The notes beneath the pieces are model-generated. The model worked only from the letters and a program-made list of their open reading frames with translations, ran no database searches and had not been told where the DNA came from. Below are positions 38,865-58,434 of a stretch of DNA of 64,000 nucleotides, piece after piece. Within the stretch, counting starts at the first letter, position 1, and every line of letters starts with the position of its first letter. Both the position numbers and the translations under genes were made by a program. This DNA comes from Chloroflexota bacterium (lineage in GTDB: Bacteria > Chloroflexota > Dehalococcoidia > E44-bin15): positions 56,702-120,701 of the forward strand of contig JAUVVB010000001.1 of NCBI GenBank assembly GCA_030604825.1. The letters are read 5' to 3'.

Positions 38865-41021
38865 TTATGTCGCCTTCCTCCTGATCACCACAAAGCTCGT
38901 TAAGGCTACAACTAGCACCACACCGGCTACTCCACCAATAACGCCCCAGGGCACTCCAGAGCTGTCATCTGTTGGCGTTGGAGTAGGAGTTGGCGTAAGC
39001 GTAGGAGCTGGCATTGGTGTTGGCGTGGGCGCAGGTGTAGGTGTAGGCGTGGACGCTGGTGGCGTAGGTGTAGGTGTGGACGCTGCTCCTCCGCCACCAC
39101 TGGCAGGCATCGGCGTGGGTGTTAGTGTTGGGGTCGGGGTCGGGGTAGAACCACCACCGGCGGGTGTTGGTTTTGGGATCGGGGTAGAACCACCGAATTC
39201 GAAGGCACCGATGTCTGGGGCAGAGCCTTGATATGGCCAGGGGGAGTTCGCGTCGTTGAAGCCGGGGAGGACTATGCCTTTACCTATGCAAGGGGAGGTC
39301 AATTGTAAGCTCAGGTCACCATTAGCTAGGTCGACGAACTGGCTGTCGGCTGAGATTCCATGTTTCTCATAACCAGTAGCTGCTCGAAATTCCCCAAAGG
39401 TGGTATATGCGTCAGCTACGCCTGTTTGCCATTTCGCAAATCTGGTTGAAGATCTAGTATATAAGTTGTCGTAATCATAGTCACAGTAGCTCCACTCCGG
39501 GTCAGTATCGCCATTTTCTATAACATACCCGCCAACTTGAACAAGATTATTACGAGAAACTACGTTATTTAACTTGGCATTATTTCCGAAATGGCCTATT
39601 CCCCTCGAATTGCGGGAGGTGTAGATAGTGTTGTGGTATAGATAGATAGTTCCGGTGGAACTATTGCCCATCTTGAGACCGGCGTCAGCAAAATCGACGA
39701 AGACGTTGCGAAAGACATAGTATGGCCCAACCGTAACTGGAGCCAAACCCAGACCCATGTAGCCCATAGAGTCGGACCAGGAATTCTTGTAGAAATTAGC
39801 CCATATCGCCACATTGACATTGTCGCCTTCTATCTCCAACCCATCATCCCATGGACCTTCGATATAGTTATCATGGATGAATATGTCCTTGTAGCTGTTG
39901 CCCCCTATACCGTCCTTGAATCCCTTGCCAATGATGGTGTTATTACGGATCACAATTACCGAATTGCCAGGTTTGCCTTGATTCCAGAAGAACACCCCGA
40001 ACCTTTGGGCGCGTTTCTCACCTGTGTAGGTGATATGATTCCTCTGGATGAGGATATCGTGGCAGGGGTGTCCTCCGTCTATACCGTCCCTTATCAACAC
40101 TCCGGAGCAAGCCCATTGATTCCCAGGGTCGATCATAATGTTATCTTCGATAATGATGTTGTTGGTATCATAATCAAGCAGAATATTGCGGCCGTCACCG
40201 GTGCTAAAAGGATCCCTAAGCTCCAATCCTTTAATCCTGATATAGCTGGAGCTGGCGATAAGGATGTTGTGGCCTCGACTCTTCTGGCCATCTATTACTG
40301 CCTTGTCATCTAAGCTATAGCTCTGAAGGGTAATGTAGTTGTTCTCGGCCCCCGATCTTCCATTGATAATTACTTCCTCGTTGTAGATTCCTGGCATTAT
40401 CAGGACTTTATCTCCCGCCTGCACTATATCCACAGCATGCTGGATTGTGCTGAAGGGTTCGGCTTCAGTTCCAGGATTTGAGTCGTCTCCATCAATAGCT
40501 ACATAATAGGTATTTCCATTAGATGGTGGATTGTCATTTCTCGTCCTGATTGTTGCTGTGACCGGACTACCGGAGACACCGTCAGGGTCGGTATAGGTAA
40601 CCCTTACTTCGTATTCGGTATCAGGCTCAAGCCAGAAGATAATGCCTCGCCATTGATACTTGAAGGCGTTATCCAAATATAGCGTCTGGTGCAGGTCGCC
40701 GTCATAATATGGCACCTGCTCCCTTCTATCCACAGTGAACGGTGTTACTTGTTTCCATACTGGGGAGCCGACCTCACTGTACTCCAAGGTGGCCTGGTTA
40801 TTTCCGTTATCATCTCCGCTGAAGTTAGAATACACGGAAATACCTTCAAAGGCTGGGACCAGGGACAGGGTGCCTACAGTGGTTGACTTCCCCTGAGCCA
40901 GGGCTGGGGAAGCCATGCCAGCCATCAGCAGTGAGGCTAGAGCTAGGGCTACCAATACGATGTAAAGCACTTTCCTTTCATGCTTCATCTTCATGGCCAA
41001 GGGTCGAGAAATCACAACCAT
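38865..41021 (-). CDS. cell-surface protein: signal peptide, right-handed parallel beta-helix (pectate-lyase/NosD-like) domain, Pro/Thr-rich linker, C-terminal TM anchor
   Basis: 718 aa; MKMKHERKVLYIVLVALALASLLMAGMASPALA signal; beta-helix repeats rich in N/G/I; (TPTP)n; C-terminus WGVIGGVAGVVLVVALTSFVVIRRKAT. Confidence 0.7.
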   Translation of the reverse strand: MVVISRPLAMKMKHERKVLYIVLVALALASLLMAGMASPALAQGKSTTVGTLSLVPAFEGISVYSNFSGDDNGNNQATLEYSEVGSPVWKQVTPFTVDRREQVPYYDGDLHQTLYLDNAFKYQWRGIIFWLEPDTEYEVRVTYTDPDGVSGSPVTATIRTRNDNPPSNGNTYYVAIDGDDSNPGTEAEPFSTIQHAVDIVQAGDKVLIMPGIYNEEVIINGRSGAENNYITLQSYSLDDKAVIDGQKSRGHNILIASSSYIRIKGLELRDPFSTGDGRNILLDYDTNNIIIEDNIMIDPGNQWACSGVLIRDGIDGGHPCHDILIQRNHITYTGEKRAQRFGVFFWNQGKPGNSVIVIRNNTIIGKGFKDGIGGNSYKDIFIHDNYIEGPWDDGLEIEGDNVNVAIWANFYKNSWSDSMGYMGLGLAPVTVGPYYVFRNVFVDFADAGLKMGNSSTGTIYLYHNTIYTSRNSRGIGHFGNNAKLNNVVSRNNLVQVGGYVIENGDTDPEWSYCDYDYDNLYTRSSTRFAKWQTGVADAYTTFGEFRAATGYEKHGISADSQFVDLANGDLSLQLTSPCIGKGIVLPGFNDANSPWPYQGSAPDIGAFEFGGSTPIPKPTPAGGGSTPTPTPTLTPTPMPASGGGGAASTPTPTPPASTPTPTPAPTPTPMPAPTLTPTPTPTPTDDSSGVPWGVIGGVAGVVLVVALTSFVVIRRKAT
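38950..39190. repeat. low-complexity GGTGTxGGCGTxGG tandem repeats encoding the Pro/Thr linker of the surface protein
   Basis: Repeated ggtgtaggtgtaggcgtggacgct-type units; a similar tract lies at 10200-10330 in the lipoprotein gene. Confidence 0.5.
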
Positions 41022-41500: not shown

Positions 41501-42631
41501 TTACAAAGTTCTTTCATTACCTCTGAGAGTGGCCATTACGTTTTTGGCAATCTCAGCGCCTACTTTTTCCCATGAGTACTTTTCGAGAACAAGACGTCTA
41601 CCATTTTCTCCCAGAGCCTGGCATTTCTCCGCATTCCCTATTAGCTCGACTAATACCTCCGATAGATGTTCCACATCGCCACACTTCACAAGGTGCCCAG
41701 TTTCTCCCTCTAAAACCAAATCAGGTATTCCCTCAACGTCTGTAGCAACGACGGGAAGTCCATGAGCAAATGCCTCTAAGCATACGATTGGAAAAGAAGG
41801 ATCTAGCTTGGTTGGAAGACAGAACACGGAAGCCCTTTCATAGTAATGATTGAGCCTTTCGAGGGGAACTCGACCAACTACATCGCAACTGGGAATATTC
41901 AATTTAGGTGAGCATCCCACAACGGTGAGTCGAGCGGTAGGATGAGCTTTTAGAACCCGTTTGAATGCTTCTACCAGCTCCGGTCCACCCTTCCTTTCCC
42001 AATCCATCCCCACAAACAAGATGTTCTTATTTTCGTATTTTCCTTTATCCACTTCGATGTTTGTTCCTATATTGCTACCTGAGTGCACACAAATAACTTT
42101 ATCTGAAGGACAAGAATAGTCTTCTATAATAGACCTTGATATATTACTACTCCTGGTAAAGTTAAGTGTGGCATTGTGATAAATGGTTCTCTCCAGTTCA
42201 ATCCAGCGCGGGCTATACAGGTCTTTTTTCTCAAAATCTGGATAAGATAGATTTGCCAGGTGAGTGTGGTCAGTATAGACATAGTGCGGCAAGCCTTCTT
42301 TACTTCCATCATATAATGATTGAAATTGAAAGGAAAACCGGTACTCATCTTGCGAAAGGAGGTTGGACACCAAGGTTTTTATTCTTCTAAATATATATGT
42401 CGTTCTCCAAAAACATTCGCTGATTTTTTTCCTGCCCAGCAGTATTTCCGAGCCATACTCTTTCAAAATAAAGAACATGTTTACCAGGATTACAGTTTTT
42501 TTGCTTCTAATTAAATCCCCAACATGTATTACATCAATGTCCCAATCGGGAAAGTGCTCTATTAGCGTTTGCATAACACTGCCCTTCGAGGGGTGAGCCC
42601 CCCGTGTTATGAAAGCAAATTTTCTTGCCAT
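41501..42631 (-). CDS. glycosyltransferase family 4 (GT-B, RfaB/WcaL-like); AT-rich
   Basis: 376 aa; C-terminal GT4 region CLPTKLDPSFPIVCLEAFAHGLPVVATDVEGIPDLV (E-x7-E); markedly lower GC than the flanks. Confidence 0.75.
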   Translation of the reverse strand: MARKFAFITRGAHPSKGSVMQTLIEHFPDWDIDVIHVGDLIRSKKTVILVNMFFILKEYGSEILLGRKKISECFWRTTYIFRRIKTLVSNLLSQDEYRFSFQFQSLYDGSKEGLPHYVYTDHTHLANLSYPDFEKKDLYSPRWIELERTIYHNATLNFTRSSNISRSIIEDYSCPSDKVICVHSGSNIGTNIEVDKGKYENKNILFVGMDWERKGGPELVEAFKRVLKAHPTARLTVVGCSPKLNIPSCDVVGRVPLERLNHYYERASVFCLPTKLDPSFPIVCLEAFAHGLPVVATDVEGIPDLVLEGETGHLVKCGDVEHLSEVLVELIGNAEKCQALGENGRRLVLEKYSWEKVGAEIAKNVMATLRGNERTL

Positions 42632-42660
42632 AGAGGACCTCCTTGAGAAACCCTGCCTTC

Positions 42661-42760
42661 ATCCATTGTGCCTGAGAGTAGTCTCTATGTTTTTAACTAT
42701 CTCAGCGCCTACTTTTTCCCAGTGTAGACTTGCCAGGTGAGTACGGTCAGTATAGAAAGC
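42661..42760 (-). pseudogene. ~100-bp remnant of a second GT4 paralog (internal fragment joined directly to the last ~20 codons)
   Basis: 42661-42720 is about 85% identical to 41515-41575 (...WEKVGAEI(V/A)KN...); 42731-42758 matches 42254-42281 (YTD(R/H)THLA); the intervening ~700 bp of the gene is absent. Confidence 0.55.
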
Positions 42761-43946
42761 CTTCAGTCCATAAACCAGTTATATGCCAGTTGCGTATATC
42801 AAAGATTTGCTCGTACTTACCCCCTGTTAGGTCTTTTACAGTAAAATTCCAAGATCCACTCGTTTTTTCATCGACTGAGAAACCAAATTGATGCAACTGG
42901 TCAAATACATCTTGAGCTAGAGAATCCCTTGGATTCCCCAAGAACCGAAACCGTCCCGCTTTTTTGGCGTAATCTTTGAGTATTGCATACAACAAAAGAG
43001 ATGTTGCATATCTGTCTTCCGAGAGAATGTCTGAAATGGATGCAAACCCCTGAAACAATACAACAAACGCATATGCCCGTAATTTACCACCTTGGTAAAC
43101 TTGATACTCATCGTATTTAAGGAATGGATGTTCTCGAACTCTCCACCTAAGATATTTTTGATCATATTTTAGAGATACAATATTGTTATGTTTTGACTTT
43201 ACCCTTTCATAAAGTTCTTTCAACGAACGTTCGTCTATCTCCCCTTTTTTGATTTCATATCCTGCTTGTTTTTGAATTTGAGGAATGGTTCTGCTATTTC
43301 TTATTCTCATAAAGGAAGATTGTGTAATTAACTTTCCTACAGAACCAATTCGACGCCAAAGCGGGGTTGTGGTTCCGTAGGGATTGGTTCGTAGCCTTGA
43401 AACTATATCAGCCCAAATGTTGCCAGGTCGCAGCCACACTTGAATGTCTGGGTAAAGAGTATATCCAAGTTTTTGAGGCACTTTTACTAAAGGTCCGAGA
43501 CCCCATAAGAATTGAATTCCACGGTCAATGGAATGTTTTTCTACATATCCCGCTAACTCTAGCAAAAGAGTGGTTCCTCTATAAGGTGGCAGTATTAACA
43601 GGCTTTCATTTTTTCCGGACAGGACACACTCAGTCCCAACCTCCATATAAATAGGGATCATGGCTCTTGTTGCGATTAATTTGTCACCATCTTTTGCAAA
43701 TGCGAATACTGCCTTCCCGGGCATGCATGTTTCATACTCCCATAGCCAATCTTCGGGTCTTCTTCTTGTTCCATAATGGGAGTTGTGAAAATCGACCATA
43801 TCCAAAGCATCTCTTAATGTGGCCAATCCAAATTCAATTCTTCGTTGTTCAGGCTCTGAACCGGGAAAGTCTTCTATTTGTGTTTGCATAGCGCTGGTTT
43901 TTGTGGGGTGAGAACCCCATGTTATGAAAGCAAATCTTACACTCAT
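42747..43946 (-). CDS. chimeric ORF: first ~27 codons (plus upstream leader) of a GT4 paralog fused in frame to an AT-rich acyltransferase-like (FemAB/GNAT-fold?) body
   Basis: N-terminus MSVRFAFITWGSHPTKTSAMQTQIEDFP parallels MARKFAFITRGAHPSKGSVMQTLIEHFP of ORF 41501-42631 (~85 bp of DNA homology including the 5' leader); the rest is unrelated; the last 4 codons plus stop lie in GT-derived remnant sequence. Confidence 0.5.
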   Translation of the reverse strand: MSVRFAFITWGSHPTKTSAMQTQIEDFPGSEPEQRRIEFGLATLRDALDMVDFHNSHYGTRRRPEDWLWEYETCMPGKAVFAFAKDGDKLIATRAMIPIYMEVGTECVLSGKNESLLILPPYRGTTLLLELAGYVEKHSIDRGIQFLWGLGPLVKVPQKLGYTLYPDIQVWLRPGNIWADIVSRLRTNPYGTTTPLWRRIGSVGKLITQSSFMRIRNSRTIPQIQKQAGYEIKKGEIDERSLKELYERVKSKHNNIVSLKYDQKYLRWRVREHPFLKYDEYQVYQGGKLRAYAFVVLFQGFASISDILSEDRYATSLLLYAILKDYAKKAGRFRFLGNPRDSLAQDVFDQLHQFGFSVDEKTSGSWNFTVKDLTGGKYEQIFDIRNWHITGLWTEGFLY

Positions 43947-43997
43947 ACAGCACCTCCCTAAGGAATTTCGCCTACTTTGAAGTACGCCTCCTTAACT

Positions 43998-44918
43998 TCA
44001 AAGTAGAGGTTTTTTTAGACCGTACACTATGCCCTTGTTTCTACGGGCTTCAAATCCGTCCCTGTTTAGCCAAGAAACAATGGTCCTGTAAGTTTCTTTC
44101 TCTCCCGCTTTATGATATGTTGCGATTGCCAATTTTACATCGTTGTCCTTCAAGGTTTCCTTCATCCCTTTGTATGCCTCGATCTCCGCACCTTCGACGA
44201 TCATTTTTATGAAATCAACCTTGTTTACACCCAATTCCCTCAATATATTATCCAATGTATCTACTTCGACCTCCATAAATCTACCCCTGCAACGTACGAA
44301 ACTATGCCCTGATGTATTCTCTTTGATAAAAAGCTTTAGCCTGTCCTTTCTGCTCCAAACGCCCTTCGGAACTATCACCACATTGTTTAGCCCGTTTGCC
44401 CGAATATTTCTTTCCAAGACCCTTAAATTATCCATCTCAGGCTCTATTGCAACGACCATGCCCCCATCCCCCACAGTTTTTGCTGCTCTCACCGTAAACG
44501 TCCCTATGTGTGCCCCTACATCTACAACGATGTCACCCTTTTTGACCTTATAATACTTTTGGTATATCTCGTCCCTATACTGCTGCACTAACTGGCGCCA
44601 AAGGGTTCCAAAGTATTCAATTGTCACTATTTTAGTGAGTATGTGCTGATTTCCATACCTAGAGCGAATTCTAGTAGAAAAGTCAAGTATGCTGTCTTGT
44701 TTTTCCCCGTCTGGCTGAGCATAAAACTTAACGCCATCGTTAAGCTCCACGCGCAAGGATCCGTCTTCTAGCTCTTCTACCTGAGTTATAATTTTACTTA
44801 AGGCATCTAGAGGATTATAATACCTGAAAAGAAGGCTTCTCAGAAAATCTTTAAATCTACCTTCAGGGAGTATACTACTAATTGCCTTTCTTCCCCATTC
44901 TATCAATGTATGCGTCAT
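43998..44918 (-). CDS. FkbM-family methyltransferase
   Basis: DIVVDVGAHIGTFTVRAAK SAM-binding motif, 306 aa; AT-rich. Confidence 0.7.
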   Translation of the reverse strand: MTHTLIEWGRKAISSILPEGRFKDFLRSLLFRYYNPLDALSKIITQVEELEDGSLRVELNDGVKFYAQPDGEKQDSILDFSTRIRSRYGNQHILTKIVTIEYFGTLWRQLVQQYRDEIYQKYYKVKKGDIVVDVGAHIGTFTVRAAKTVGDGGMVVAIEPEMDNLRVLERNIRANGLNNVVIVPKGVWSRKDRLKLFIKENTSGHSFVRCRGRFMEVEVDTLDNILRELGVNKVDFIKMIVEGAEIEAYKGMKETLKDNDVKLAIATYHKAGEKETYRTIVSWLNRDGFEARRNKGIVYGLKKPLL

Positions 44919-45020
44919 TTATACACCTCCACAATTACCCTTTTGCCCCAAGCCTCTGAGAGCGGCAGGTGGCCCCCTGGTTCTCCCGGTAAATATATTT
45001 GACCCGGGTATCTGCAAAGC

Positions 45021-46562
45021 TCATTTGGTTTCCTCATGCGGTGTCTCGATGACGGGTGGGCCTTGCCTCCAAACCAAAGGCACTTTAGCCATAACCAACT
45101 TTGCATATGGCTTGACCATCTCCAGAGCAAGTTCAATCATTTCATTGAGGGCTTCGGTTCTGGCCGCCTTCAATGTTATGAAGTAGATGACAGCACCTAA
45201 CAACACTGAACTGACCAGGAGCCCAACATCAGGTAAAGTGAACAAGCTTGCTGCCGCATAGCGAAAGGCAAGCAGGGTCACGGCCATCACTACAGCGCCA
45301 AAGGCGGCGGGGCGCAGTGAGGCCAGGTAATCTCTCATCCTCAAACCGATAAGTCGGTTGGCAAATATCTGGCGAGTGAGCCACATGATAGCAGCAACCC
45401 CTGAAACACCCAGGGCAACACCTACTGTTCCGAATCTGACTCCAATGAGCAGGCACGGAACCAGAAGGGCAACTGTTACTAGACTTAGTTTCAGCTCAAT
45501 ATCAGGCCTCCCCTTGGACCGCAAAACAGGTCCAACCGTTACGCTGATCGAGGCAATAGCGGCCATGATACAGAGTATCTGCATGGGCAGGATAGCCGCA
45601 GTCCATTTTTGACCAAAAACTACCTTAACCAATTCAGGGGCGACTATAGCTAGCCCAACGAATAAGGGGAGGACAATTAGACAGAGATATGTCACGCTCT
45701 TCGTGAATCCGCGGCGCAACCGCTCATCTTCATCCTGAACTATTGAGAAAGCAGGAAAAGCTACTCTGCCCACAGTCATCCACAGCCCCGTTGCCACGAA
45801 GCCTGCTGTTCTATGCCCCAAGTTGTAGAACCCCAGGGCTGCCGGCATTAAGAATATTCCGATGATCAGGTAGTCTAATCTCTCGGTCAGATACTGAACG
45901 ACCCTGCTTCCGGTCAAGTTGGAGCCAAACCCCCACAAATCCCTCAGGCTTTTGAGGCTGAACATAATAGACGGGTGCCAACGGCATAGAGCCCACCTCA
46001 GGATGGCAAGGGCAAGGTGGCTTGCCAGGTTGCCCAGGACAAGGCTCCAGACCCCAAAGCCGGCAAATGCCAGGGGCACCGCTACAGCCAGGTAAGTAAC
46101 TCCCTGTCCAATTTCACCGATTGAGAACCTGAAAAACTGTAACCTCTTCCGCAACAGGCTGCTGTGGACAGACCTCAGGGGAGCAATGACGAAGGCTAGA
46201 GAGGAAACCGCCAATATCGGACCGACGAGCTCGTTTCCGAAGAAATCTGCCACAAAGGGAGAGATAGCCACCGTCACAGTGCAGAAGACAAGGCCAAAGG
46301 CCAACCCGGTCCAAAAGGCTGTTGAAAGATGACTGGCGGTTACCTCTTTTCGCTGGATGATAGCTTCGCCAAAGCCCAGATCGCCCATTCGCAGCACTAG
46401 CTCGGTGACGATGATCGCCATGGCGACGATGCCAAAATCCTCCGGGAAGAGCAGCCGGGCCAGAACGATCATGCTTATGAAGCGCAGGCCTTGCCCCAGG
46501 ACCTGGGAGACTCCAAACCAAGTCACCCCGCGCACTGCTGACCTAGTTAGCGCACCGCTCAT
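45021..46562 (-). CDS. wzx: polysaccharide biosynthesis protein / Wzx-type flippase (MOP superfamily)
   Basis: 513 aa, ~12-14 TM; N-terminus AVRGVTWFGVSQVLGQGLRFISMIVLARLL typical of O-unit flippases. Confidence 0.75.
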   Translation of the reverse strand: MSGALTRSAVRGVTWFGVSQVLGQGLRFISMIVLARLLFPEDFGIVAMAIIVTELVLRMGDLGFGEAIIQRKEVTASHLSTAFWTGLAFGLVFCTVTVAISPFVADFFGNELVGPILAVSSLAFVIAPLRSVHSSLLRKRLQFFRFSIGEIGQGVTYLAVAVPLAFAGFGVWSLVLGNLASHLALAILRWALCRWHPSIMFSLKSLRDLWGFGSNLTGSRVVQYLTERLDYLIIGIFLMPAALGFYNLGHRTAGFVATGLWMTVGRVAFPAFSIVQDEDERLRRGFTKSVTYLCLIVLPLFVGLAIVAPELVKVVFGQKWTAAILPMQILCIMAAIASISVTVGPVLRSKGRPDIELKLSLVTVALLVPCLLIGVRFGTVGVALGVSGVAAIMWLTRQIFANRLIGLRMRDYLASLRPAAFGAVVMAVTLLAFRYAAASLFTLPDVGLLVSSVLLGAVIYFITLKAARTEALNEMIELALEMVKPYAKLVMAKVPLVWRQGPPVIETPHEETK

Positions 46563-46617: not shown

Positions 46618-47775
46618 CTACCCAACAGTGAGGCCCTCCCTCTGCCTCAGAGTCTCCTCATATAGTGATTGATATTGGTGTACCATCCTTTCCAGGCTGA
46701 ATTGGGTGACAACCCTCTCCTTGGCTCTTTGGCCCATGGCCTCGGCTGTGTCTGGATCCTGGAGTAGTGCGATGATGGCCTGTGCCAGCGGCTCAGCATC
46801 CCCCCGGGGAACCAGGAAGCCAGTTTCGCCGTGGCGCACCAGCTCCCGGTTGCCTCCCACATCCGTGGCCACCACCGGTTTTCCCAGCGCCATGGCCTCG
46901 AGCAGGGAGTTAGAACAGCCCTCGGTCTCTGAGGTCAGAGCAGCTATGTCGAAGGCTGAAAGGTAGGTGCCCACATCTCGTTGCTCACCAAAAAAGACCG
47001 CTTTTGAAGCCAGACCCAGCTCCTGGGTCATGTCTTCCAGATGGCTGCGCAAGGGTCCGTCTCCCACTAGAGCAAATCTTGTATCTGGCATAACCTGGTT
47101 GATCAACGCTGCCGCCTGGAGGAAGATAGCGTGGCCTTTAACCGGAAACAAACGGGCCATCATGCCCACTACCCTGCCGTGGGGAGGCAGATCGAGCCTC
47201 CGCCTGACCTGTTCCACGCCCTCGTCATCGGCGGTCAGGCGACTCAGGTTGATCCCGTTATAGATCACCCTTATGCGGGAAGGTTTGATGCCTCGTTGGA
47301 CAAGATATTCCTGTCCCGCATGGCTGTTAGGAACAGCCCAGTCAGCAAAGCGGGTGAGGAAATCCTCAGCCTTGAGGTAGATACGATAGCCAAGGTGATC
47401 ATTCCTTTTTCCGGGGCCGGATCTTTCGGTCACAATCTTCACCGGCGTGCGTCGCAGGAGCGCTGGCAGAAGGCCGAAAAGGGTAGCCGGGGTGAGGAAA
47501 GGTTGAACTATATCGATCTTCATCTTGCGGAGGATGCCCAAGACCTTAAACAGGCAGAGAAGATCGTATTTCCCCTTGCGTTCTAGGGAAATGACCTCGA
47601 CGTCGGGCACTTGCTTGAATTCCCGTTCCAGAGGGCCCCCGGGGTGAAGGGTGAGGACAACGGGCTTGAATCGTTTCTTGTCCAGGCCCTTGACCAGTTC
47701 CAGGAGCTGACGCTGTGCTCCGTCCATTGCTAGGTCAGTTATGGGGAAAAGCACCGTTATGCGCTCATTCATCAA
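46618..47775 (-). CDS. glycosyltransferase family 4
   Basis: 385 aa; EGCSNSLLEAMALGKPVVATDVGGNRELV. Confidence 0.8.
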   Translation of the reverse strand: MMNERITVLFPITDLAMDGAQRQLLELVKGLDKKRFKPVVLTLHPGGPLEREFKQVPDVEVISLERKGKYDLLCLFKVLGILRKMKIDIVQPFLTPATLFGLLPALLRRTPVKIVTERSGPGKRNDHLGYRIYLKAEDFLTRFADWAVPNSHAGQEYLVQRGIKPSRIRVIYNGINLSRLTADDEGVEQVRRRLDLPPHGRVVGMMARLFPVKGHAIFLQAAALINQVMPDTRFALVGDGPLRSHLEDMTQELGLASKAVFFGEQRDVGTYLSAFDIAALTSETEGCSNSLLEAMALGKPVVATDVGGNRELVRHGETGFLVPRGDAEPLAQAIIALLQDPDTAEAMGQRAKERVVTQFSLERMVHQYQSLYEETLRQREGLTVG

Positions 47776-47794: not shown

Positions 47795-49267
47795 TCAGCT
47801 CTGACTTGCCCTCTTTGCTTTCGGGCCTTGGCTTTGAAGCACCAGTTTAGCGGTGGCCAGCGAGAAGCCGGCCAGTATCCAGAAGAGGGGCATAGTGACC
47901 ATCAGGTTATGATAGAAAGCATTTACCGCGTAAGCTATCAGGGCAGCAGCCAGGCCTACGGACAACCCTTTGATGAAACGTGTAGTCGACGCCCGGTAGG
48001 AGTCAAGGAGGTTGCGTAAGACGACGACATAAAGCCAGAGATAGGCTACCAGGGCCAGCGTTCCATAGCATATCCACATCATTAAGAAATCATTGTGGGG
48101 CGGCTCGCTCCCCAGAGTGCTGTAGCCCCAGTATCTCTCCTCCTCCCATGCCAAGAGGGACGGATCAACATCGGAGGCGTATTCCGGAGAGACGACCCTG
48201 AATCTGTCCCCGCCAATCCCCAACACCGGGTTCTCGATGGCCATGGAAATGCCCGACTGCCACAATATCTGCCGCGAAACAGAGCTTTCCTCTTGTGTAC
48301 CTGCTGGCCTGCCCCCAAGATATTGGCCCCCCAGCATTCCAGTTGCTGCAATGAGGCCAATTCCCAGCAATAAAACGGCAAAAATGATCTCGCCCCTGAT
48401 TCGCGTTTTCAAGAACAGAGCCAGTGCCACCAGCCCCAAGATCAGACCGAAGAGAGCTGAACGTGTATAGGTGAAGTACAAAGCCAATCCTATCAGCACC
48501 GCCGATGATCCTAGTAGCCATCTGGTGCCGGTGTTCACCCCCTTCACTAGAAAGACGCCGAGCAGCGCCGGAAGTGCCACCGAGAGGGTAAATGCCAGCT
48601 CAAGCTCGGTCTCACCCATCCCCGGCACCCTGCCTACCCCTTCCCGAGGGAGCTGGAGAAATCCGGGAATGAGGGTGTTTTGGTCCATACCGAGGAACTG
48701 GTAATGTTGCATCAAGCCGATAATGGCTGAGGCGGCCAAGCCAATAAAGGCCACTCCGCACAGTATCTTCAGGTCCTTCGAGTTCCTGACAACTGCTGGC
48801 AAAAAGATAATGATCAACAGGCCAACCAACATGTTTCGGAAATCTCTAAAGATGAAGTCGAGTCCCGTGTTAGCTATGTTGGCGATCACGCTTACTCCCA
48901 GCAATATGACAGCCGGGATCAGGACTCGCCGTGCCATTGGTCCCAGCTCGACCTGCTTTTGAGCAAAGGAGCGCCACAGGACGAGCCCAATCAGTATCAG
49001 CAACAAAAGACGAAGGCTGATTGTGAGGTCAAAGGGGGTGGTGACCATGTAGCTGGTGGCAGTCAACTGGCTGACCAAGAAGGCGGCCATGGCCCACACC
49101 GGCCTTCTCAGGCCGAGAAGGAACAAGGCAGCCACGGCCAGAAGCGCAGCCGTCAGCGGGCTGATCGGGATGAAGCTCCATATGAGCACTACTCCCAAGA
49201 CAGCCAGGACAATGGCTTGGGTGCGGTTCAACAGCCCTGGTCTTTGAGCTGCGGCTTCCATCTCCAT
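47795..49267 (-). CDS. wzy: O-antigen ligase/polymerase-like membrane protein (Wzy/WaaL family)
   Basis: 490 aa, ~11 TM with a large extracytoplasmic loop; sits between GT genes in a wzx/wzz locus. Confidence 0.65.
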   Translation of the reverse strand: MEMEAAAQRPGLLNRTQAIVLAVLGVVLIWSFIPISPLTAALLAVAALFLLGLRRPVWAMAAFLVSQLTATSYMVTTPFDLTISLRLLLLILIGLVLWRSFAQKQVELGPMARRVLIPAVILLGVSVIANIANTGLDFIFRDFRNMLVGLLIIIFLPAVVRNSKDLKILCGVAFIGLAASAIIGLMQHYQFLGMDQNTLIPGFLQLPREGVGRVPGMGETELELAFTLSVALPALLGVFLVKGVNTGTRWLLGSSAVLIGLALYFTYTRSALFGLILGLVALALFLKTRIRGEIIFAVLLLGIGLIAATGMLGGQYLGGRPAGTQEESSVSRQILWQSGISMAIENPVLGIGGDRFRVVSPEYASDVDPSLLAWEEERYWGYSTLGSEPPHNDFLMMWICYGTLALVAYLWLYVVVLRNLLDSYRASTTRFIKGLSVGLAAALIAYAVNAFYHNLMVTMPLFWILAGFSLATAKLVLQSQGPKAKRASQS

Positions 49268-53360: not shown

Positions 53361-54488
53361 TCACACTTCTAGTTTACTTGCCTCCAGACCGAACTCGGAA
53401 AAGTCCCGAAAGCAGTCACAGACATAGCCTATTTCCTCGGCGGTGAGCTCAGGGTACATGGGAAGGGAGAGTATCTCCCCGCTAACCTCCTCGGTGACGG
53501 GCAAAAAGGCATCGTTGCCGCAATAGCCTCGGCAGGCCTCCTGCAAATGGATGGGGATAGGGTAATGTATTCCTGTGGCTACGCCTTTGGCTTCCAGCCA
53601 GGCGCGAAGCTGGTCACGGTTTGGGGTTCTGATGACATAGAGATGGTAGACATGCTTGGCCCAGGGCATCTGCTGTGGTTTGGTCACCGATGAGGGCAGG
53701 CCTGCCTCATAGGCCTGGGCAAGGCTGCGCCGCCTTTCGTTCCACTCATCCAGGTGGGGGAGCTTTACCCTGAGCACAGCAGCCTGGATCTCGTCAAGGC
53801 GGCCATTAACCCCCAACAGATGGTGATGATATTTGGCATCCTGGCCATGGTCTCGCAGCATCTTGGACTTCCTGGCTATATCGGGGTCGGAGGTTACCAT
53901 CATTCCTGCCTCGCCATAGGCCCCCAGGTTCTTGGTGAAATAGAAGCTGAAACATCCGACATCCCCCAGGGAACCGGTGCGGCACCCTTGGCATTCAGCA
54001 CCATGGGCCTGACAGGCATCCTCGATAACCTTGAGGTTGTAAGTTCGGGCCAGCTCCAAGATGGGCCCCATGTCGGCGGGGTGCCCATATAGATGGACGG
54101 GGAGGATGGCCCTGGTCCTGGCGGTGATCCTACTTTCTATCTGGGAGGGGTCCATGTTATAAGTGTGGGGGTCGATGTCGACGAAGACGGGCCTGGCCCC
54201 CACCAGGGCTATGGCTTCGACGGTGGCAAAGAAGGTATGGGAAACAGTGATCACCTCATCCCCTGGCCCCACCCCACAGGCGCGCAGGGCTAGGTGCAGG
54301 GCTTCGGTCCCCGAGCCCACGCCGATGGCAAATTCGGTGCCACAGTAGCGGGCGAACTCGGCCTCCAACGCCTGAACATTCTGGCCCAGGAAGAGCTGCA
54401 TTCCTTCCAGAGCCTCACCTATCCCAGCCAGAACCTCTGCTCTAATGGCCTGATACTGTTTCTTTAGGTCAACGAAGGGTATAAACAT
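53361..54488 (-). CDS. DegT/DnrJ/EryC1/StrS PLP-dependent sugar aminotransferase (WbpE-like)
   Basis: 375 aa; CFSFYFTKNLGAYGEAGMMV (PLP-Lys region). Confidence 0.8.
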   Translation of the reverse strand: MFIPFVDLKKQYQAIRAEVLAGIGEALEGMQLFLGQNVQALEAEFARYCGTEFAIGVGSGTEALHLALRACGVGPGDEVITVSHTFFATVEAIALVGARPVFVDIDPHTYNMDPSQIESRITARTRAILPVHLYGHPADMGPILELARTYNLKVIEDACQAHGAECQGCRTGSLGDVGCFSFYFTKNLGAYGEAGMMVTSDPDIARKSKMLRDHGQDAKYHHHLLGVNGRLDEIQAAVLRVKLPHLDEWNERRRSLAQAYEAGLPSSVTKPQQMPWAKHVYHLYVIRTPNRDQLRAWLEAKGVATGIHYPIPIHLQEACRGYCGNDAFLPVTEEVSGEILSLPMYPELTAEEIGYVCDCFRDFSEFGLEASKLEV

Positions 54489-55140
54489 CTTTTAACCTCT
54501 CTATGAGATGGCTGTAGGGCTTGTCCCTAAGGCCGTTGGTACAAACCAAGTCCTCTATCCTGCCCCTGACCTGAGCCGGGTTGCCGTAGGCCACTGCCCC
54601 AGGCGGGATGTCTTCGGTGACCACGCTTCCGGCGCCAATCAGGGCATATTCTCCTATAGTGACTCGAGGGAGCACGCAAACATTGATGCCGATCTGAGCC
54701 CCCCTTTTGATAAGGGGACCTCTCATGCACTCCGCGGCATCGGGGCACCCGGGGTGAAGATCATTAGCTAGGATAACGCCAGGCCCTAAAAAGGCATCGT
54801 CCTCGATAGTGGTGAACTGAGTGATATAGACATTGTGATGGATCTTGACGTTATTCCCTATCCTGCAGCCGTAGTCGATGGTGGAGTTGCTCCAGATGCG
54901 GAGGTTATCTCCGACGAGGTTTTGCTCCCTGATGACCACATTGTGGCCGGTTTCCAGATTGCAGCCGATGCAGCTGCCGCCATAGATAACGGTGCCACTC
55001 CGAATACGGGCGCTGGGCCCGATGATGAGCAGGTGGTCGTCGCCCTGGGCCGGAGGGTAGCCGAGAACCACCCCCAAATCGATCACCGCACCTTCCCCTA
55101 ACCGTACCGCAGAGCTATTTTGCCTTTGACCTTTCATCAA
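54469..55140 (-). CDS. hexapeptide-repeat sugar N-acetyltransferase (WbpD/PglD-like)
   Basis: Left-handed beta-helix repeats (IGNNVKIHHNVYI..., IGINVCVLPRVTIGEYALIGAGSVV). Confidence 0.75.
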   Translation of the reverse strand: MMKGQRQNSSAVRLGEGAVIDLGVVLGYPPAQGDDHLLIIGPSARIRSGTVIYGGSCIGCNLETGHNVVIREQNLVGDNLRIWSNSTIDYGCRIGNNVKIHHNVYITQFTTIEDDAFLGPGVILANDLHPGCPDAAECMRGPLIKRGAQIGINVCVLPRVTIGEYALIGAGSVVTEDIPPGAVAYGNPAQVRGRIEDLVCTNGLRDKPYSHLIERLKDVYTLR

Positions 55141-56198
55141 CGTTTCCCCTGAATAAGCTTTGCTGAACAGCCCTCAGCAATAGCCATAGTCGAGGGCAGC
55201 TTCTCTCGCCGGCCTCCGTTCAAAAGGGACCTATTTGCTGCTTCTAGGATATTGACTATCTTGAGCCCCGCCCAGCCATCGCTCCTGGGCCTCTTGCCTT
55301 CAGTTATGCACTGCAAGAAGTGGCTGCACTCCAACTTCAAAGGCTCGGCATTGGAAATGAAGGGGATGGTCACATCGCCGTGGCGATAACTGGGGGGCCA
55401 GGCGGCGAACTTATCAGCGTTGGCGGGAATGGCTACTCCCTTATCGTAGATGCGTATCTTTTCCGCCTCCGACACGTCGTCATAGATCACCATCTTCTTG
55501 CTGCCGACGATGGTGATCTGGCGCACCTTACAGGGGTCAAGCCAGCTCACGTGCAAATGGGCCAGGGCCTCGCCGGGGAATCTGAGCTCCAGATAGGCCA
55601 CATCGTAAACAGCGGCGTCGATATGGCCCCCTCCCCTGGCGCTTACTGTGATGGGTTCCCCATCCAGCAGGGCAACCACGATACAGATGTCGTGGGGGGC
55701 CAGGTCCCAGAGGACATTGACGTCAGGACGGAACAGGCCCAGATTGAGCCGGGCAGCATCGATATAGTAGATCTCTCCCAGCTCCCCGCTCTTCACCAGT
55801 TGCCGCAGGAAGTCCACGGCTGGATGATATTCATAGGTATGCCCTACCATCAGCACCCGGTTTCGCTTCTCGGCCAGCTCAATGAGCTCCACCGCCTCCC
55901 GGCTGCTGGCAGTTATGGGCTTTTCCACCAGGACATGCTTATCGTGGAGCAGTGCCTCCCTGGTCAGACGATAGTGGGAGCAGACCGGGGTGGCTACTAC
56001 CACGGCGTCCACATCGCCCTTAAGCAGGTCCCCGAAGTCGGAGGTAGTCACCACATAGGGATATTGCCTTCGGACCTGTTCGAGCCTGTCCTGCTCGAGG
56101 TCACAGACCATGGTCACGTTTGCCCCCGCCAGCTCGTGAAAATTCCTGACGTGCTTCGGCCCCCAATAGCCGCAACCGACGATGCCCACATTAACCAT
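55137..56198 (-). CDS. Gfo/Idh/MocA-family UDP-sugar oxidoreductase (WbpB-like)
   Basis: VNVGIVGCGYWGPKHVRNF N-terminal Rossmann fold; 353 aa. Confidence 0.75.
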   Translation of the reverse strand: MVNVGIVGCGYWGPKHVRNFHELAGANVTMVCDLEQDRLEQVRRQYPYVVTTSDFGDLLKGDVDAVVVATPVCSHYRLTREALLHDKHVLVEKPITASSREAVELIELAEKRNRVLMVGHTYEYHPAVDFLRQLVKSGELGEIYYIDAARLNLGLFRPDVNVLWDLAPHDICIVVALLDGEPITVSARGGGHIDAAVYDVAYLELRFPGEALAHLHVSWLDPCKVRQITIVGSKKMVIYDDVSEAEKIRIYDKGVAIPANADKFAAWPPSYRHGDVTIPFISNAEPLKLECSHFLQCITEGKRPRSDGWAGLKIVNILEAANRSLLNGGRREKLPSTMAIAEGCSAKLIQGKR

Positions 56199-56889
56199 CT
56201 CGCATCTCCTTTAGCTCTCGGTAGCTGCCGTCCCTCCCCAGGACGGTGCCCACGGTTAGCAACATGATTTTGCCGTCCAGAAGCGGCGACTGCCTCTCTA
56301 CGTAGTCGATATCGAGGCGCACCATTTGGTCAAAGGAAAGGCCAGCCCGCCCACATACCTGCCATAGCCCCGTGATGCCCGGTTTGACTGAAAACCTCTT
56401 TTTGTGCCAATCTTCATACAGCTCCACAGCGAAGGGAATATCCGGTCTGGGGCCGACAAAGGACATCTCTCCCTTCAGCATGTTGAAAAGCTGGGGAAGC
56501 TCATCTAGGTTGGTCTTGCGCAGCAAAGCACCCACTCGGGTCACCCGCGGATCATCAGCGACCTTATACACCGGCCGCCCTTGGCGGTCTACTCCATAGG
56601 GGACACCTTGGGTGATAAGCCTCCTCAAATATGCCTTGTAATCGCTGTCGTCGTTATTCACATGCATGGTCCGGAATTTGTAAGCGGTGAATCTGCGACC
56701 GTCCTTCCCCACCCGCTCCTGGGCGAATATCGGACTTCCAGGCGAATCGACCCTGATCCCGATTGCTAGTAGAGCCAGGAGCGGGGATAAAACCACTATG
56801 CCCAGCACCGCCAGCAAACGGTCAAAGACACCCTTCCAGCAGGAATAGGCAAATAGGCGGCGAACTCCTTTGCCCTCTAGGATGGCCAT
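56191..56889 (-). CDS. undecaprenyl-phosphate sugar phosphotransferase (initiating bacterial sugar transferase, PglC/WbaP C-terminal type)
   Basis: N-terminal TM then [15 protein letters not shown]...GPRP...[22 protein letters not shown]-like motifs. Confidence 0.8.
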   Translation of the reverse strand: [232 protein letters not shown]

Positions 56890-57022
56890 ATGTTCAGACT
56901 CCCCTTTCGGTCCACTAGGGCTGCTACCGCCAGGGCATCCACCAGGTGGCTGCCAATGAATCCGGCCCCGCCGGTAACCAAGATCTTCTTTCCCGCTAGT
57001 TTCATCGCTTTTACTCGCTGGC

Positions 57023-58405: not shown

Positions 58406-58434
58406 CTCTATACCTCCAACATAGCCTGCCCAAG

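What the first reader, a model, noticed from the sequence alone, without database searches (positions are those of the whole stretch)
41501..43946. Glycosyltransferase paralog hijacked in frame by a foreign acyltransferase-like cassette, leaving a 100-bp remnant
Within the most AT-rich stretch of the glycan locus (about 41.0-45.0 kb), ORF 42747-43946 begins with about 85 bp (the leader plus 27 codons, FAFIT.G.HP.K.S.MQT.IE.FP) that are homologous to the start of the downstream GT4 gene (41501-42631). It then continues in frame into an unrelated 370-aa body. Its last four codons and the following 42661-42760 are again GT-homologous: an internal YTDxTHLA segment is joined directly to the C-terminal ...WEKVGAEI.KN... 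tail, omitting about 700 bp. The simplest reading is that a tandem GT4 duplicate had its middle replaced by an imported gene that now uses the GT's promoter, RBS and start codon. This is a snapshot of glycan-locus diversification by cassette exchange.
Basis: seen in the sequence. Interest (0 to 1): 0.5.

Follow-up and report, generated by a model that had tools for sequence, protein, structure and literature searches.

The report
Acyltransferase gene wearing a glycosyltransferase's start
A sugar-decorating acyltransferase gene in a cell-surface polysaccharide locus borrowed its ribosome-binding site and first 29 codons from a neighbouring glycosyltransferase gene, and scraps of that broken gene still lie beside it; this is a real but old and fairly ordinary scar of locus reshuffling, shared by related uncultured bacteria.

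Summary
ORF 42747-43946 (minus strand) shares its Shine-Dalgarno leader and codons 1-29 with the downstream GT4 gene 41501-42631 (81/107 nt, E 1e-17). A 32-nt internal scrap and a 50-64-nt tail scrap of a GT4 copy lie between the two genes.

The body is a tandem-GNAT acyltransferase with an N-myristoyltransferase/Eis-like fold. Most of its 73 homologues are about 360 aa long and lack the GT head. The head is disordered in the AlphaFold model.

The interpretation needs three corrections.

1. This is not a fresh snapshot. Five other metagenome loci carry the same chimera and the same scraps (83% DNA identity, colinear), as does a nearly identical independent assembly. Other relatives keep different scraps, so a once-longer GT4 pseudogene decayed independently in different lineages.
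2. The last codons and the stop are native to the GNAT. The overlap TCTATACTGA is a 10-nt microhomology at an illegitimate-recombination junction.
3. The ribosome-binding site and start codon were captured, but there is no evidence that a promoter was.

GNATs that keep their native start also carry the 3' GT scrap, which favours insertion first and in-frame head fusion later. Tandem GT4 pairs and an "empty site" exist in relatives. A possible second case (an FkbM gene head in front of another methyltransferase) occurs next door in relatives. Interest is modest.

The parts
41501..42631 (-). Intact GT4 glycosyltransferase gene (376 aa). It is the surviving copy and the reference for all GT-derived pieces.
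   Evidence: PF00534 97 bits and PF13692 94 bits. 1,154 homologues at E<=1e-10, 370-380 aa, 98-100% coverage. The head, internal and tail motifs are family-wide.
42632..42657 (-). Native GT4 leader with the SD (AAGGAGG). It was duplicated together with the GT4 head.
   Evidence: The sequence TTTCTCAAGGAGGTCCTCTATG matches TTCCTTAGGGAGGTGCTGTATG in front of ORF A.
42658..42721 (-). Tail scrap of the lost GT4 copy (codons about 354-374 plus its own stop). It is non-coding.
   Evidence: 42/50 to the window GT4's own tail. 64 nt at 78%. 86% over 64 nt to the L001 GT4 tail. Orthologous scrap in L001, L002 and L026.
42725..42756 (-). Internal scrap of the lost GT4 copy (GT4 nt 353-384, codons 118-128). 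Its first 10 nt (42756..42747, TCTATACTGA) overlap the last codons and the stop of the GNAT and form the junction microhomology.
   Evidence: 29/32, E 6e-8; D3. Longer versions of the same scrap occur in L045 and L006. The native GNAT 3' end is TTTCTATACTAA/TGA where no scrap is present, in L041, L042 and L046.
42747..43858 (-). Tandem-GNAT acyltransferase body (ORF A codons 30-399 plus the native stop).
   Evidence: 73 homologues, typically 355-365 aa, starting MI(L/I)E..Q..IEF at ORF A residue about 28-30. AF2 pLDDT 88. Foldseek probability 1.0 to N-myristoyltransferases and Eis-like GNATs. PF13527 passes in P0008 and P0009.
43859..43946 (-). Captured GT4 head: codons 1-29 of ORF A (MSVRFAFITWGSHPTKTSAMQTQIEDFPG).
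   Evidence: Part of the 107-nt, 76% match. pLDDT below 50 for residues 1-33. dN/dS about 1.0-1.1 against 0.45-0.48 for the body. Clusters with the GT4 heads of L048 and the window.
43947..43965 (-). Captured GT4 leader with the SD (GGGAGGTG, 6 nt before the ATG).
   Evidence: The DNA homology continues upstream of the start codon. No other SD-preceded in-frame start exists before the fold begins (read from the sequence).
43998..44918 (-). FkbM-type methyltransferase, the third gene of the low-GC island. In relatives its head (44860-44943) recurs in front of an unrelated methyltransferase.
   Evidence: PF05050 65 bits. 73-74% over 78-84 nt to L001/L002 5033-5116. Residues 1-20 are 65% identical to the L001 MT2 extension, E 2e-5.

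Best explanation
ORF 42747-43946 is an old chimeric gene. Its Shine-Dalgarno site, ATG and first 29 codons come from a copy of the GT4 glycosyltransferase gene. Codons 30-399 and the stop codon are a complete tandem-GNAT (N-myristoyltransferase/Eis-like) acyl-CoA-dependent acyltransferase that has lost its own start.

Most likely history (inferred). At some stage the locus held two adjacent GT4 copies. A GNAT gene was joined by illegitimate recombination into the upstream copy. Its 3' end landed in a 10-nt microhomology (TCTATACTGA) at GT4 codon 118, so the GNAT kept its exact native stop. In one sublineage a further in-frame deletion or recombination then fused GT4 codon 29 to GNAT codon about 3. 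This removed the GNAT's own ribosome-binding site, so translation now depends on the GT4 head. The rest of the broken GT4 copy (codons 118-376) became a pseudogene. Different deletions whittled it down in different lineages. In this genome about 100 nt remain (codons 118-128 joined to codons about 354-374).

The head is a disordered, apparently neutrally evolving N-terminal tail. It is kept open only because it carries the start. The enzyme itself is under purifying selection and presumably N-acylates an amino sugar or another amine of the Wzx/Wzy-dependent surface glycan made by this locus. The chimera is shared by a clade of uncultured bacteria, probably Chloroflexota.
For: The three GT-derived segments are colinear and highly significant.

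Direction of transfer: the head, internal and tail motifs occur in GT4 homologues at 50-83% identity with full-length coverage. Only P0001-P0007 and P0012 of 73 GNAT homologues have the head, and the others start MI(L/I)E..Q..IEF. The homology includes the untranslated SD leader.

The head is not part of the fold: pLDDT is below 50 for residues 1-33 and 88 overall.

Selection: head dN/dS is 1.0-1.1, body 0.45-0.48, GT 0.20-0.22.

Native stop and microhomology: L041, L042 and L046 end TTTCTATACTAA/TGA with no GT hit downstream.

Age and orthology: window 43935..41509 aligns colinearly with L001 6012-8425 at 83%. The architecture is the same in L001-L004 and L026.

Independent decay of a longer pseudogene: L045 and L006 keep a longer internal piece (about 60-70 and 52 nt) and a shorter tail, while the window, L001, L002 and L027 keep 32 nt plus a longer tail. 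Neither form can be derived from the other.

Two-step order: L006 (P0009) and L051 (P0010) have native GNAT starts but a GT scrap after the stop.

Empty site: in L048 an intact GT4 follows the same upstream spacer that precedes the chimera in L001 and the window.

Tandem or near-tandem GT4 pairs occur in L050 and L049.

Not an assembly artefact: L047, a separate Logan assembly, has an identical GNAT-3'/scrap/GT4 junction.

Fold: Foldseek E 2e-13 to NMT, and TM up to 0.58 to Eis-like GNAT 2hv2.
Against: The order of events and the existence of a true tandem duplicate are inferred, not observed. No locus was found with a GT4 5' part followed by a GNAT that keeps its native start.

The head-bearing GNATs are not monophyletic in unbootstrapped NJ trees, where P0012 sits apart from P0001-7. 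Loss, regain or recombination of 5' ends must therefore have occurred.

L008 has the head but no scrap. This also fits an origin without a full second GT4 copy.

The dN/dS of the head rests on 29 codons. The orthologous GT4 heads are equally variable (pN 0.30), so 'neutral' is only weakly shown.

The window protein itself scores below Pfam's GNAT threshold (13.9 bits against a cut-off of 25).

The substrate and activity are unknown.
Confidence: 0.8

Rival explanations
1. One reading: a recent, one-step replacement of the middle of a tandem GT4 duplicate by an imported cassette, caught as a snapshot, with the GT's promoter captured as well.
For: The colinear head, internal scrap and tail scrap are what such an event would leave. 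Tandem GT4 pairs exist in L050 and L049. The region is a low-GC island.
Against: The same chimera and the same deletion junction occur in L001-L004, L026 and L027, at 69-78% aa identity and dS 0.24-0.55. Different scraps survive in L045 and L006. The 3' junction is present behind GNATs with native starts. There is no promoter signal above chance.
Confidence: 0.1
2. No prior tandem duplicate existed. A donor segment carrying the GNAT plus an adjacent GT4 integrated by homology-facilitated illegitimate recombination. It was anchored by homology in the recipient's single GT4 and closed by a microhomology junction at codon 29, so the integration itself created the partial GT4 duplication.
For: In L008 a head-bearing GNAT is followed after 28 nt by an intact GT4 with no scrap. 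The GNAT and GT4 have discordant dS values (window-L001: 0.24 vs 0.55; L001-L002: 0.19 vs 0.08), so the two genes have separate recombination histories. The heads of L001 and L002 do not match their own neighbouring GT4 heads.
Against: This does not by itself explain the internal and tail scraps with their own stop and duplicated leader, which require most of a second GT4 copy upstream of the intact one. Extra steps would be needed.
Confidence: 0.2
3. The GT-derived head is kept because it has a function of its own. It might be a docking or targeting peptide that brings the acyltransferase to the glycosyltransferase machinery or the membrane.
For: The reading frame through the head is open in all eight head-bearing proteins, including L009, where the SD-proximal ATG is out of frame but an upstream ATG keeps the ORF open. 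Some residues recur (F.F, TKTS.MQTQ).
Against: pLDDT is below 50. dN/dS is about 1, with pN three times that of the body. Most of the family works without the head. An open frame is required anyway, because the body has no start of its own.
Confidence: 0.08
4. Artefact or coincidence: an assembly chimera, or an N-terminal motif common to both protein families.
For: The sequences come from metagenome-assembled contigs. The head is short.
Against: Six independent assemblies from ENA, JGI and Logan share the structure, and L047 is identical across the 3' junction. The homology is at the DNA level and includes the untranslated leader (E 1e-17). 65 of 73 GNAT homologues lack the head.
Confidence: 0.01

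Closest known systems
Gene remnants in O-antigen and capsule gene clusters of Enterobacteria and streptococci
   Same: Both involve a Wzx/Wzy-type, low-GC variable region in which gene replacement leaves short non-coding fragments of the displaced gene. The E. coli O-antigen review counts gene remnants in 9 of 178 serogroup clusters (PMC7685785).
   Different: That review reads such anomalies as signs of relatively recent events. Here the remnant is old and shared across diverged lineages. In addition, part of the displaced gene (SD plus 29 codons) has been recruited in frame as the start of an unrelated enzyme.
Displaced 'orphan' fragments in Rhs and CdiA polymorphic-toxin loci (from my own knowledge)
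   Same: A conserved gene head is retained, a new body is recombined behind it, and pieces of the previous version are pushed downstream as orphans.
   Different: Those are toxin tips with immunity genes, exchanged repeatedly by homologous recombination at a conserved motif. Here the swap involves unrelated biosynthetic enzymes, the junctions are microhomologies, and there is no evidence of repeated use. This is an analogy only.
Homology-facilitated illegitimate recombination and microhomology-mediated joining in bacteria (from my own knowledge)
   Same: The junctions lie in 10-nt (3') and imperfect 7-of-12-nt (5') microhomologies. The foreign gene was integrated next to a homologous anchor (GT4).
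   Different: The mechanism is inferred from present-day sequence only. No donor has been identified.
N-myristoyltransferase and Eis-type tandem-GNAT acyltransferases
   Same: The body has two GNAT-like domains in one chain (AF2 plus Foldseek). The C-terminus is strictly conserved and of fixed length (...WTEG plus 3 residues). This is reminiscent of the catalytic C-terminal carboxylate of NMT and Eis (from my own knowledge).
   Different: Sequence identity is only 9-15% and TM 0.5-0.58. There is no SCP2-like third domain. The gene sits in a glycan locus. The substrate is unknown.
Integron gene cassettes
   Same: A promoter-less gene is expressed from resident signals.
   Different: There is no attC-like inverted repeat or integrase nearby, and the fusion is translational and in frame.

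Membership tests
GNAT acyltransferase superfamily (Acetyltransf_9-like, tandem GNAT): body of ORF A | Match to a GNAT profile HMM above the curated threshold | tested here: inconclusive
   The window protein scores PF13527 at 13.9 bits, E 0.056, against a cut-off of 25, and gives no hit at E<=0.01. Its full-length homologues P0008 and P0009 (62-66% identity) score 42-45 bits. Most of the 73 homologues carry a precomputed PF13527 hit.
GNAT acyltransferase superfamily (Acetyltransf_9-like, tandem GNAT): body of ORF A | GNAT fold (mixed beta-sheet with flanking helices), here present twice in tandem | tested here: met
   AF2 mean pLDDT 88, pTM 0.85, with domains at 37-175 and 230-399. Foldseek probability 1.0, E 2e-13 to 1e-11, to NMTs and the Eis-like GNATs 2hv2, 2i00, 3n7z and 9mva. 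The profile built from the homologue alignment weakly hits GNATs in the PDB (3t90, E 8e-4).
GNAT acyltransferase superfamily (Acetyltransf_9-like, tandem GNAT): body of ORF A | Acyl-CoA pyrophosphate-binding loop (R/Q-x-x-G-x-G/A) after beta-4 | tested here: inconclusive
   Y122-R123-G124 are nearly invariant at the expected place, but the motif is not canonical. No ligand modelling was done.
GNAT acyltransferase superfamily (Acetyltransf_9-like, tandem GNAT): body of ORF A | Acyl transfer activity | not testable with these tools
   Needs an enzyme assay.
   No FemAB hit even at E<=10. None of the 50 Foldseek PDB matches listed is a Fem protein; all are NMT, Eis-like or other GNAT entries.
GT4 (GT-B) glycosyltransferases: gene 41501-42631 and the source of the head and scraps | Glycos_transf_1 C-terminal domain above threshold, and a full-length homologous family | tested here: met
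   PF00534 97 bits and PF13692 94 bits. 1,154 homologues at E<=1e-10.
GT4 (GT-B) glycosyltransferases: gene 41501-42631 and the source of the head and scraps | The head (M..KFAFI..HP....Q.L..FP), internal (LPHYVYTDHTHLANL) and tail (WEKVGAEIAKN) segments are native to the GT4 family | tested here: met
   Alignment of 14 GT4 homologues at 50-83% identity from different contigs shows all three segments.
Chimeric ORF formed by 5' capture (translational fusion) | The DNA homology extends into the untranslated leader; most members of the recipient family lack the extension; the extension lies outside the fold | tested here: met
   The homology spans GT4 nt -18..+88. 65 of 73 homologues lack the extension. 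pLDDT is below 50 for residues 1-33.
Pseudogene remnant (non-functional scrap) | Significant homology to an intact gene, no ORF, neutral-like decay, and no RNA or regulatory signal | tested here: met
   E 6e-8 and 3e-11. The spacer is 65% identical between the window and L001, with indels. RNA fold z = +0.30. No Rfam hit. No promoter or terminator excess. One conserved 17-nt core remains unexplained.

The most novel reading that the evidence does not exclude
The heads of resident genes (SD plus about 20-30 codons) may act systematically as reusable 'plug-in' translation adaptors in these Chloroflexota-type glycan loci. Incoming enzyme genes that lack compatible expression signals would be fixed preferentially when they are joined in frame behind a resident head. 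Cassette exchange would then proceed through intragenic breakpoints near 5' ends rather than between genes. Two neighbouring cases would be instances of this general rule: the GT4 head on the GNAT, and the FkbM head in front of a class-I methyltransferase in L001, L002 and L004.
Probability: 0.12. Interest if true: 0.55.

Novelty: new member of a known kind. Interest (0 to 1): 0.3.

Why it matters
This is a clean natural example, datable by comparison, of how a surface-glycan locus gains a new decorating enzyme. The junctions are microhomologies. The gene keeps its exact native stop, which may matter for this fold. Its start was supplied by a displaced neighbour, and the chimera persisted through substantial divergence.

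On the practical side, the first 29 residues of this GNAT clade are GT-derived and can mislead start-site calling and homology annotation. The differently decayed scraps can serve as markers for reconstructing locus history in uncultured Chloroflexota-like bacteria.

It does not reveal a new kind of system.

Tried and rejected
1. Assembly chimera. Rejected: independent assemblies share the structure, and L047 is identical across the 3' junction.

2. Head as a domain common to both families, or donated from the GNAT to the GT. Rejected by the family distributions.

3. Gene conversion keeping the head similar to the neighbouring GT4. Not supported: the heads of L001 and L002 cluster with the window and L048-type heads, not with their own GT4.

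4. The scrap as a regulatory RNA, promoter or terminator. No fold signal (z +0.30), no Rfam hit, and promoter and terminator counts are at or below the shuffled expectation.

5. A mobile-element or integron-type insertion. No flanking inverted repeats or attC-like structure.

6. A third GT-tail scrap in the flippase-FkbM spacer (44953-44966, 13/14). At chance level (E 0.77). The 10-mer AAAGTAGGCG at 43978..43969 upstream of ORF A (E 2.5) is likewise not significant.

7. Finding the source genome or close species in genome contigs. Only distant GNATs (21-35% identity) from many phyla were returned. P0001 is not in the gene-position index, and its cluster carries no name or accession. Taxonomy therefore rests on the names of GT4 homologues (Anaerolineae/Chloroflexota MAGs).

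8. Literature search for described in-frame head capture in glycan loci. Nothing specific was found. Only the general statement on gene remnants turned up.
Full report
**What is in the sequence**

The minus strand carries a co-directional array of genes:
- Wzy-like polymerase, 47795-49267
- GT4, 46618-47775
- Wzx-like flippase, 45021-46562
- FkbM-type methyltransferase, 43998-44918
- ORF A, 42747-43946 (399 aa)
- a 115-nt spacer
- GT4 gene, 41501-42631 (376 aa)
- a 718-aa beta-helix protein, 38865-41021

Further upstream lies a WbpA/B/D/E-like set of sugar-nucleotide enzymes. The three genes from 41.8 to 45.0 kb form a low-GC island (0.37-0.44, against 0.51-0.60 in the flanks).

**Checking the observation**

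BLASTN of the ORF A region against the GT4 region gives three colinear matches:
- 43965..43859 vs 42650..42544: 81/107, E 1e-17. This is GT4 nt -18..+88, the SD leader plus codons 1-29.
- 42756..42725 vs 42279..42248: 29/32, E 6e-8. This is GT4 nt 353-384, codons 118-128.
- 42721..42672 vs 41572..41523: 42/50, E 3e-11. This is GT4 codons 354-370.

The repeat finder reports the same three as the top direct repeats of the region. Nothing else there is longer than 21 nt. Between the two scraps, 675 nt of GT4 are missing. The GNAT body occupies the place of GT4 nt 89-352.

**Which gene donated what**

The GT4 belongs to a large family: 1,154 homologues at E<=1e-10, almost all 370-380 aa, aligned over 98-100% of the query. 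Some carry the source names Anaerolineae or Chloroflexota MAG. An alignment of 14 members at 50-83% identity shows that three segments are family-wide:
- the head, M..K[FI]AFI..HP....Q.L..FP..E[IV]D
- the internal motif, LPH[YF]VYTDHTHLANL
- the tail, WEKVGAEIAKN

ORF A has 73 homologues. Most are 355-365 aa and begin MI(L/I)E..Q..IEF, which corresponds to ORF A residue about 28-30. Only P0001-P0007 (70-100% identity) and P0012 (54%) carry the GT-like head. The DNA homology also runs upstream of the ATG through the SD. The head therefore moved from a GT4 gene to the GNAT, and not the reverse.

**The body**

Pfam finds nothing for ORF A at E<=0.01, and PF13527 scores only 13.9 bits. The homologues P0008 and P0009 pass at 42-45 bits.

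AlphaFold2 with the 64-sequence alignment gives pLDDT 88 and pTM 0.85. It shows two alpha/beta domains (37-175 and 230-399) and a disordered segment at residues 1-33 (pLDDT below 50). Foldseek against the PDB gives probability 1.0 to N-myristoyltransferases (E 2e-13, TM 0.51-0.55) and to Eis-like GNATs (2hv2, TM up to 0.58). There is no FemAB signal.

The family ends invariably three residues after a conserved WTEG. From my own knowledge, NMT and Eis use the C-terminal carboxylate in catalysis. A similar role here would explain a strict constraint on the position of the stop. This is inference.

**The 3' junction**

GNAT relatives at 42-55% identity (L041, L042, L046) also end ...WTEGFLY* with TTTCTATACTAA/TGA. 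They have no GT similarity downstream. The codons and the stop are therefore native to the GNAT.

The 10 nt TCTATACTGA (42756..42747) occur both at the GNAT 3' end and at GT4 nt 353-362, in a different reading frame. This is the signature of a microhomology junction.

At the 5' junction the two parental sequences are also similar. The GT4 reads TGG GAC ATT GAT and the native GNAT reads TTA GAA CTT GAA. They agree at 7 of 12 positions in the same register (read).

**Age and relatives**

L001 (P0006), L002-L004 (P0005) and L026 come from ENA, JGI and Logan assemblies. They show the same order: head-bearing GNAT, a spacer of about 108 nt containing the GT scraps, then GT4. Window 43935..41509 aligns colinearly with L001 6012-8425 at 83%.

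L047 is a separate Logan assembly whose GT4 is almost identical to the window's. Its sequence from the GNAT 3' end through the scrap into GT4 is identical to the window. This excludes an assembly chimera.

Divergence between the window and L001/L002 is dS 0.24 for the GNAT and 0.52-0.55 for GT4. The event is not recent.

The spacer is 65% identical between the window and L001 and contains indels, as expected for a neutral remnant. It has no RNA-fold signal, no Rfam match and no promoter or terminator excess.

**Different scraps in different lineages**

- L045 (GNAT 86% identical) and L006 (P0009) keep a longer internal piece, through ...ANLxYPDFEKK. That is about 60-70 nt in L045 and 52 nt in L006 (79% identity, E 2.5e-6). 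It is joined to a shorter tail.
- The window, L001, L002 and L026 keep 32 nt or fewer of the internal piece, joined to a longer tail starting at ...YSWEKVG.
- L027 and L051 carry a further-decayed version of the window-type junction.
- L008 has no scrap.
- L009 has lost the GT4 altogether.

Each form retains sequence that the other lacks. Both must therefore derive from a longer GT4 pseudogene, probably codons 118-376 with its own stop and leader. Its stop region (..AATGGATGAAGG) resembles the L001-type GT4 end.

**Order of events**

L006 and L051 carry GNATs with native starts and their own SD. They nevertheless have the GT scrap immediately after the stop. The most economical reading has two steps:
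1. The GNAT first landed in a GT4 copy with its own start intact.
2. The in-frame head fusion (GT4 codon 29 to GNAT codon about 3) arose later in one sublineage.

The body now has no ATG, GTG or TTG at the ancestral start position. The only SD-preceded start is the captured one (GGGAGGTG, 6 nt before the ATG).

In NJ trees P0001-7 are monophyletic, but P0012 sits apart. Some recombination or loss of 5' ends must therefore have occurred.

**The ancestral locus**

In L048 a methyltransferase is followed by the same spacer that precedes the chimera in L001 and the window (TTTGAAGTTAA..GGTGTACTTCGC..). After that spacer comes an intact GT4 whose head (MGKRFAFITRGSHPTGNSVMQT) is the closest relative of the captured heads. 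This is an 'empty site'.

L050 has two GT4 paralogues in tandem, 23 nt apart. L049 has the order flippase, FkbM, GT4, MT, GT4, beta-helix protein. A stage with two adjacent GT4 copies is therefore plausible.

There is an alternative. A donor segment carrying the GNAT and a GT4 could have integrated, anchored by homology in a single resident GT4, and so created the partial duplication itself. This would fit L008 and the discordant dS values of the GNAT and GT4 (window-L001: 0.24 vs 0.55; L001-L002: 0.19 vs 0.08). I cannot exclude it.

**Is the head functional?**

- It is predicted to be disordered.
- Between the window and L001/L002 it has dN/dS 1.0-1.1 and pN 0.28-0.33. The body has dN/dS 0.45-0.48 and pN 0.10. 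The estimate rests on 29 codons only, and the GT4 heads themselves are equally variable.
- In L009 the SD-proximal ATG is out of frame, and the ORF is kept open from an upstream ATG.

I read the head as a passive supplier of translation-initiation signals. A docking role is not excluded, but nothing supports it.

**A possible second case next door**

The window's FkbM methyltransferase and the L001/L002/L004 class-I methyltransferase 'MT2' share several end pieces:
- the SD and the first 20 codons (MTHTLIEWGRKAISSILPEG vs MINGLIEWGRCAIGDVLPEG; 73-74% over 78-84 nt; protein E 2e-5)
- the last codons, PL[LI]*
- the downstream spacer

Their bodies are unrelated.

The head is native to FkbM, because the FkbM of L049 has it contiguous with the rest of the protein. 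MT2 begins MEENNTH... in L048. In L001-type loci an FkbM head therefore sits in frame upstream of MT2, which still has its own ATG. Fragmentary gene heads at cassette boundaries thus recur in this group of loci.

**Comparison with what is known**

Gene remnants in polysaccharide gene clusters are well known. The E. coli O-antigen review lists them in 9 of 178 clusters and treats them as marks of relatively recent events (PMC7685785). Microhomology junctions and chimeric ORFs are also known in general.

What is slightly unusual here is the in-frame reuse of a displaced gene's start by an unrelated enzyme, and its persistence across diverged lineages. I found no paper describing this for glycan loci, but the search was shallow.

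**Verdict**

It is a new member of a known kind, with interest 0.3.

Noticed in passing
window 44860-44943 (-) and 43947-44010 (-); L001 5033-5170 and 5935-6000; L048 5130-5943: A possible second case of a shared head on unrelated bodies. The FkbM methyltransferase of the window and the class-I methyltransferase MT2 of L001, L002 and L004 share the SD, the first 20 codons, the last codons (PL[LI]*) and the downstream spacer, but their bodies are unrelated. MT2 in L048 starts at MEENNTH, with no extension.
   Followed up: partly
window 42700-42721 and 41551-41572 (-); the L001, L002 and L045 scraps and GT4 tails: Within the scrap, the 17-nt core AAAGTAGGCGCTGAGAT is identical in the window, L001 and L002 scraps, inside the wider GGGAAA(A)AGTAGGCGCTGAGAT stretch that matches at 20-21 of 22 positions. 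The rest of the spacer is only about 65% identical. In the GT4 tails the same core is identical in the window, L002 and L045 and differs by one base in L001, including at synonymous sites. This could reflect gene conversion with the GT4 tail, chance, or a DNA-level constraint. It is unexplained.
   Followed up: partly
window 41501-43946 vs L001/L002 6001-8426: Adjacent genes have discordant divergence. GNAT dS is 0.24 but GT4 dS is 0.55 between the window and L001. GNAT dS is 0.19 but GT4 dS is 0.08 between L001 and L002. The GT4 heads also fall into two allelic types (ITRGSHP vs IKLHSHAINAS). This points to recombination breakpoints inside the locus.
   Followed up: partly
L006 4739-4954 and L007 4691-4954: A truncated GT2 fragment (71-87 aa, the N-terminal part only) lies directly upstream of a GNAT with a native start. 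This is another gene scrap at a cassette boundary.
   Followed up: no
L009 909-1010: In this head-bearing GNAT the SD-proximal ATG is out of frame by 1 nt and would hit a stop after 7 codons. The ORF stays open only from an upstream ATG that lies 7 nt downstream of the preceding GT2 gene. The head may be decaying here.
   Followed up: partly
window 42747-42770 (-); alignments A1 and A2: Among the complete sequences of alignment A1, the GNAT family ends exactly three residues after a conserved WTEG motif (E395 invariant, G396 in at least 90%). Together with the NMT/Eis-like fold, this suggests a catalytic C-terminal carboxylate. That would explain why the native stop survived the recombination. 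This is inference only.
   Followed up: no
window 53361-58465 (-): This stretch encodes a UDP-sugar 6-dehydrogenase, a GFO/IDH/MocA oxidoreductase, a hexapeptide acetyltransferase and a DegT aminotransferase. The set resembles WbpA/B/D/E and suggests a 2,3-diacetamido-2,3-dideoxy-uronic acid precursor for the glycan.
   Followed up: no
window 38865-41021 (-): This ORF encodes a 718-aa protein with a Pel9A-like right-handed beta-helix, a long Pro/Thr-rich linker and a C-terminal hydrophobic anchor. It is conserved immediately downstream of the GT4 in L001, L002, L049 and L050. It could be a glycosylated surface protein or a glycan-processing enzyme.
   Followed up: no
window 42747-43946 (-): The head-bearing clade (P0001-P0007) scores far lower on Pfam's GNAT model than its headless relatives (13.9 bits vs 42-45 bits). 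Its body also has a rather high dN/dS (0.45-0.48). This may reflect relaxed or shifted constraint after the fusion.
   Followed up: no
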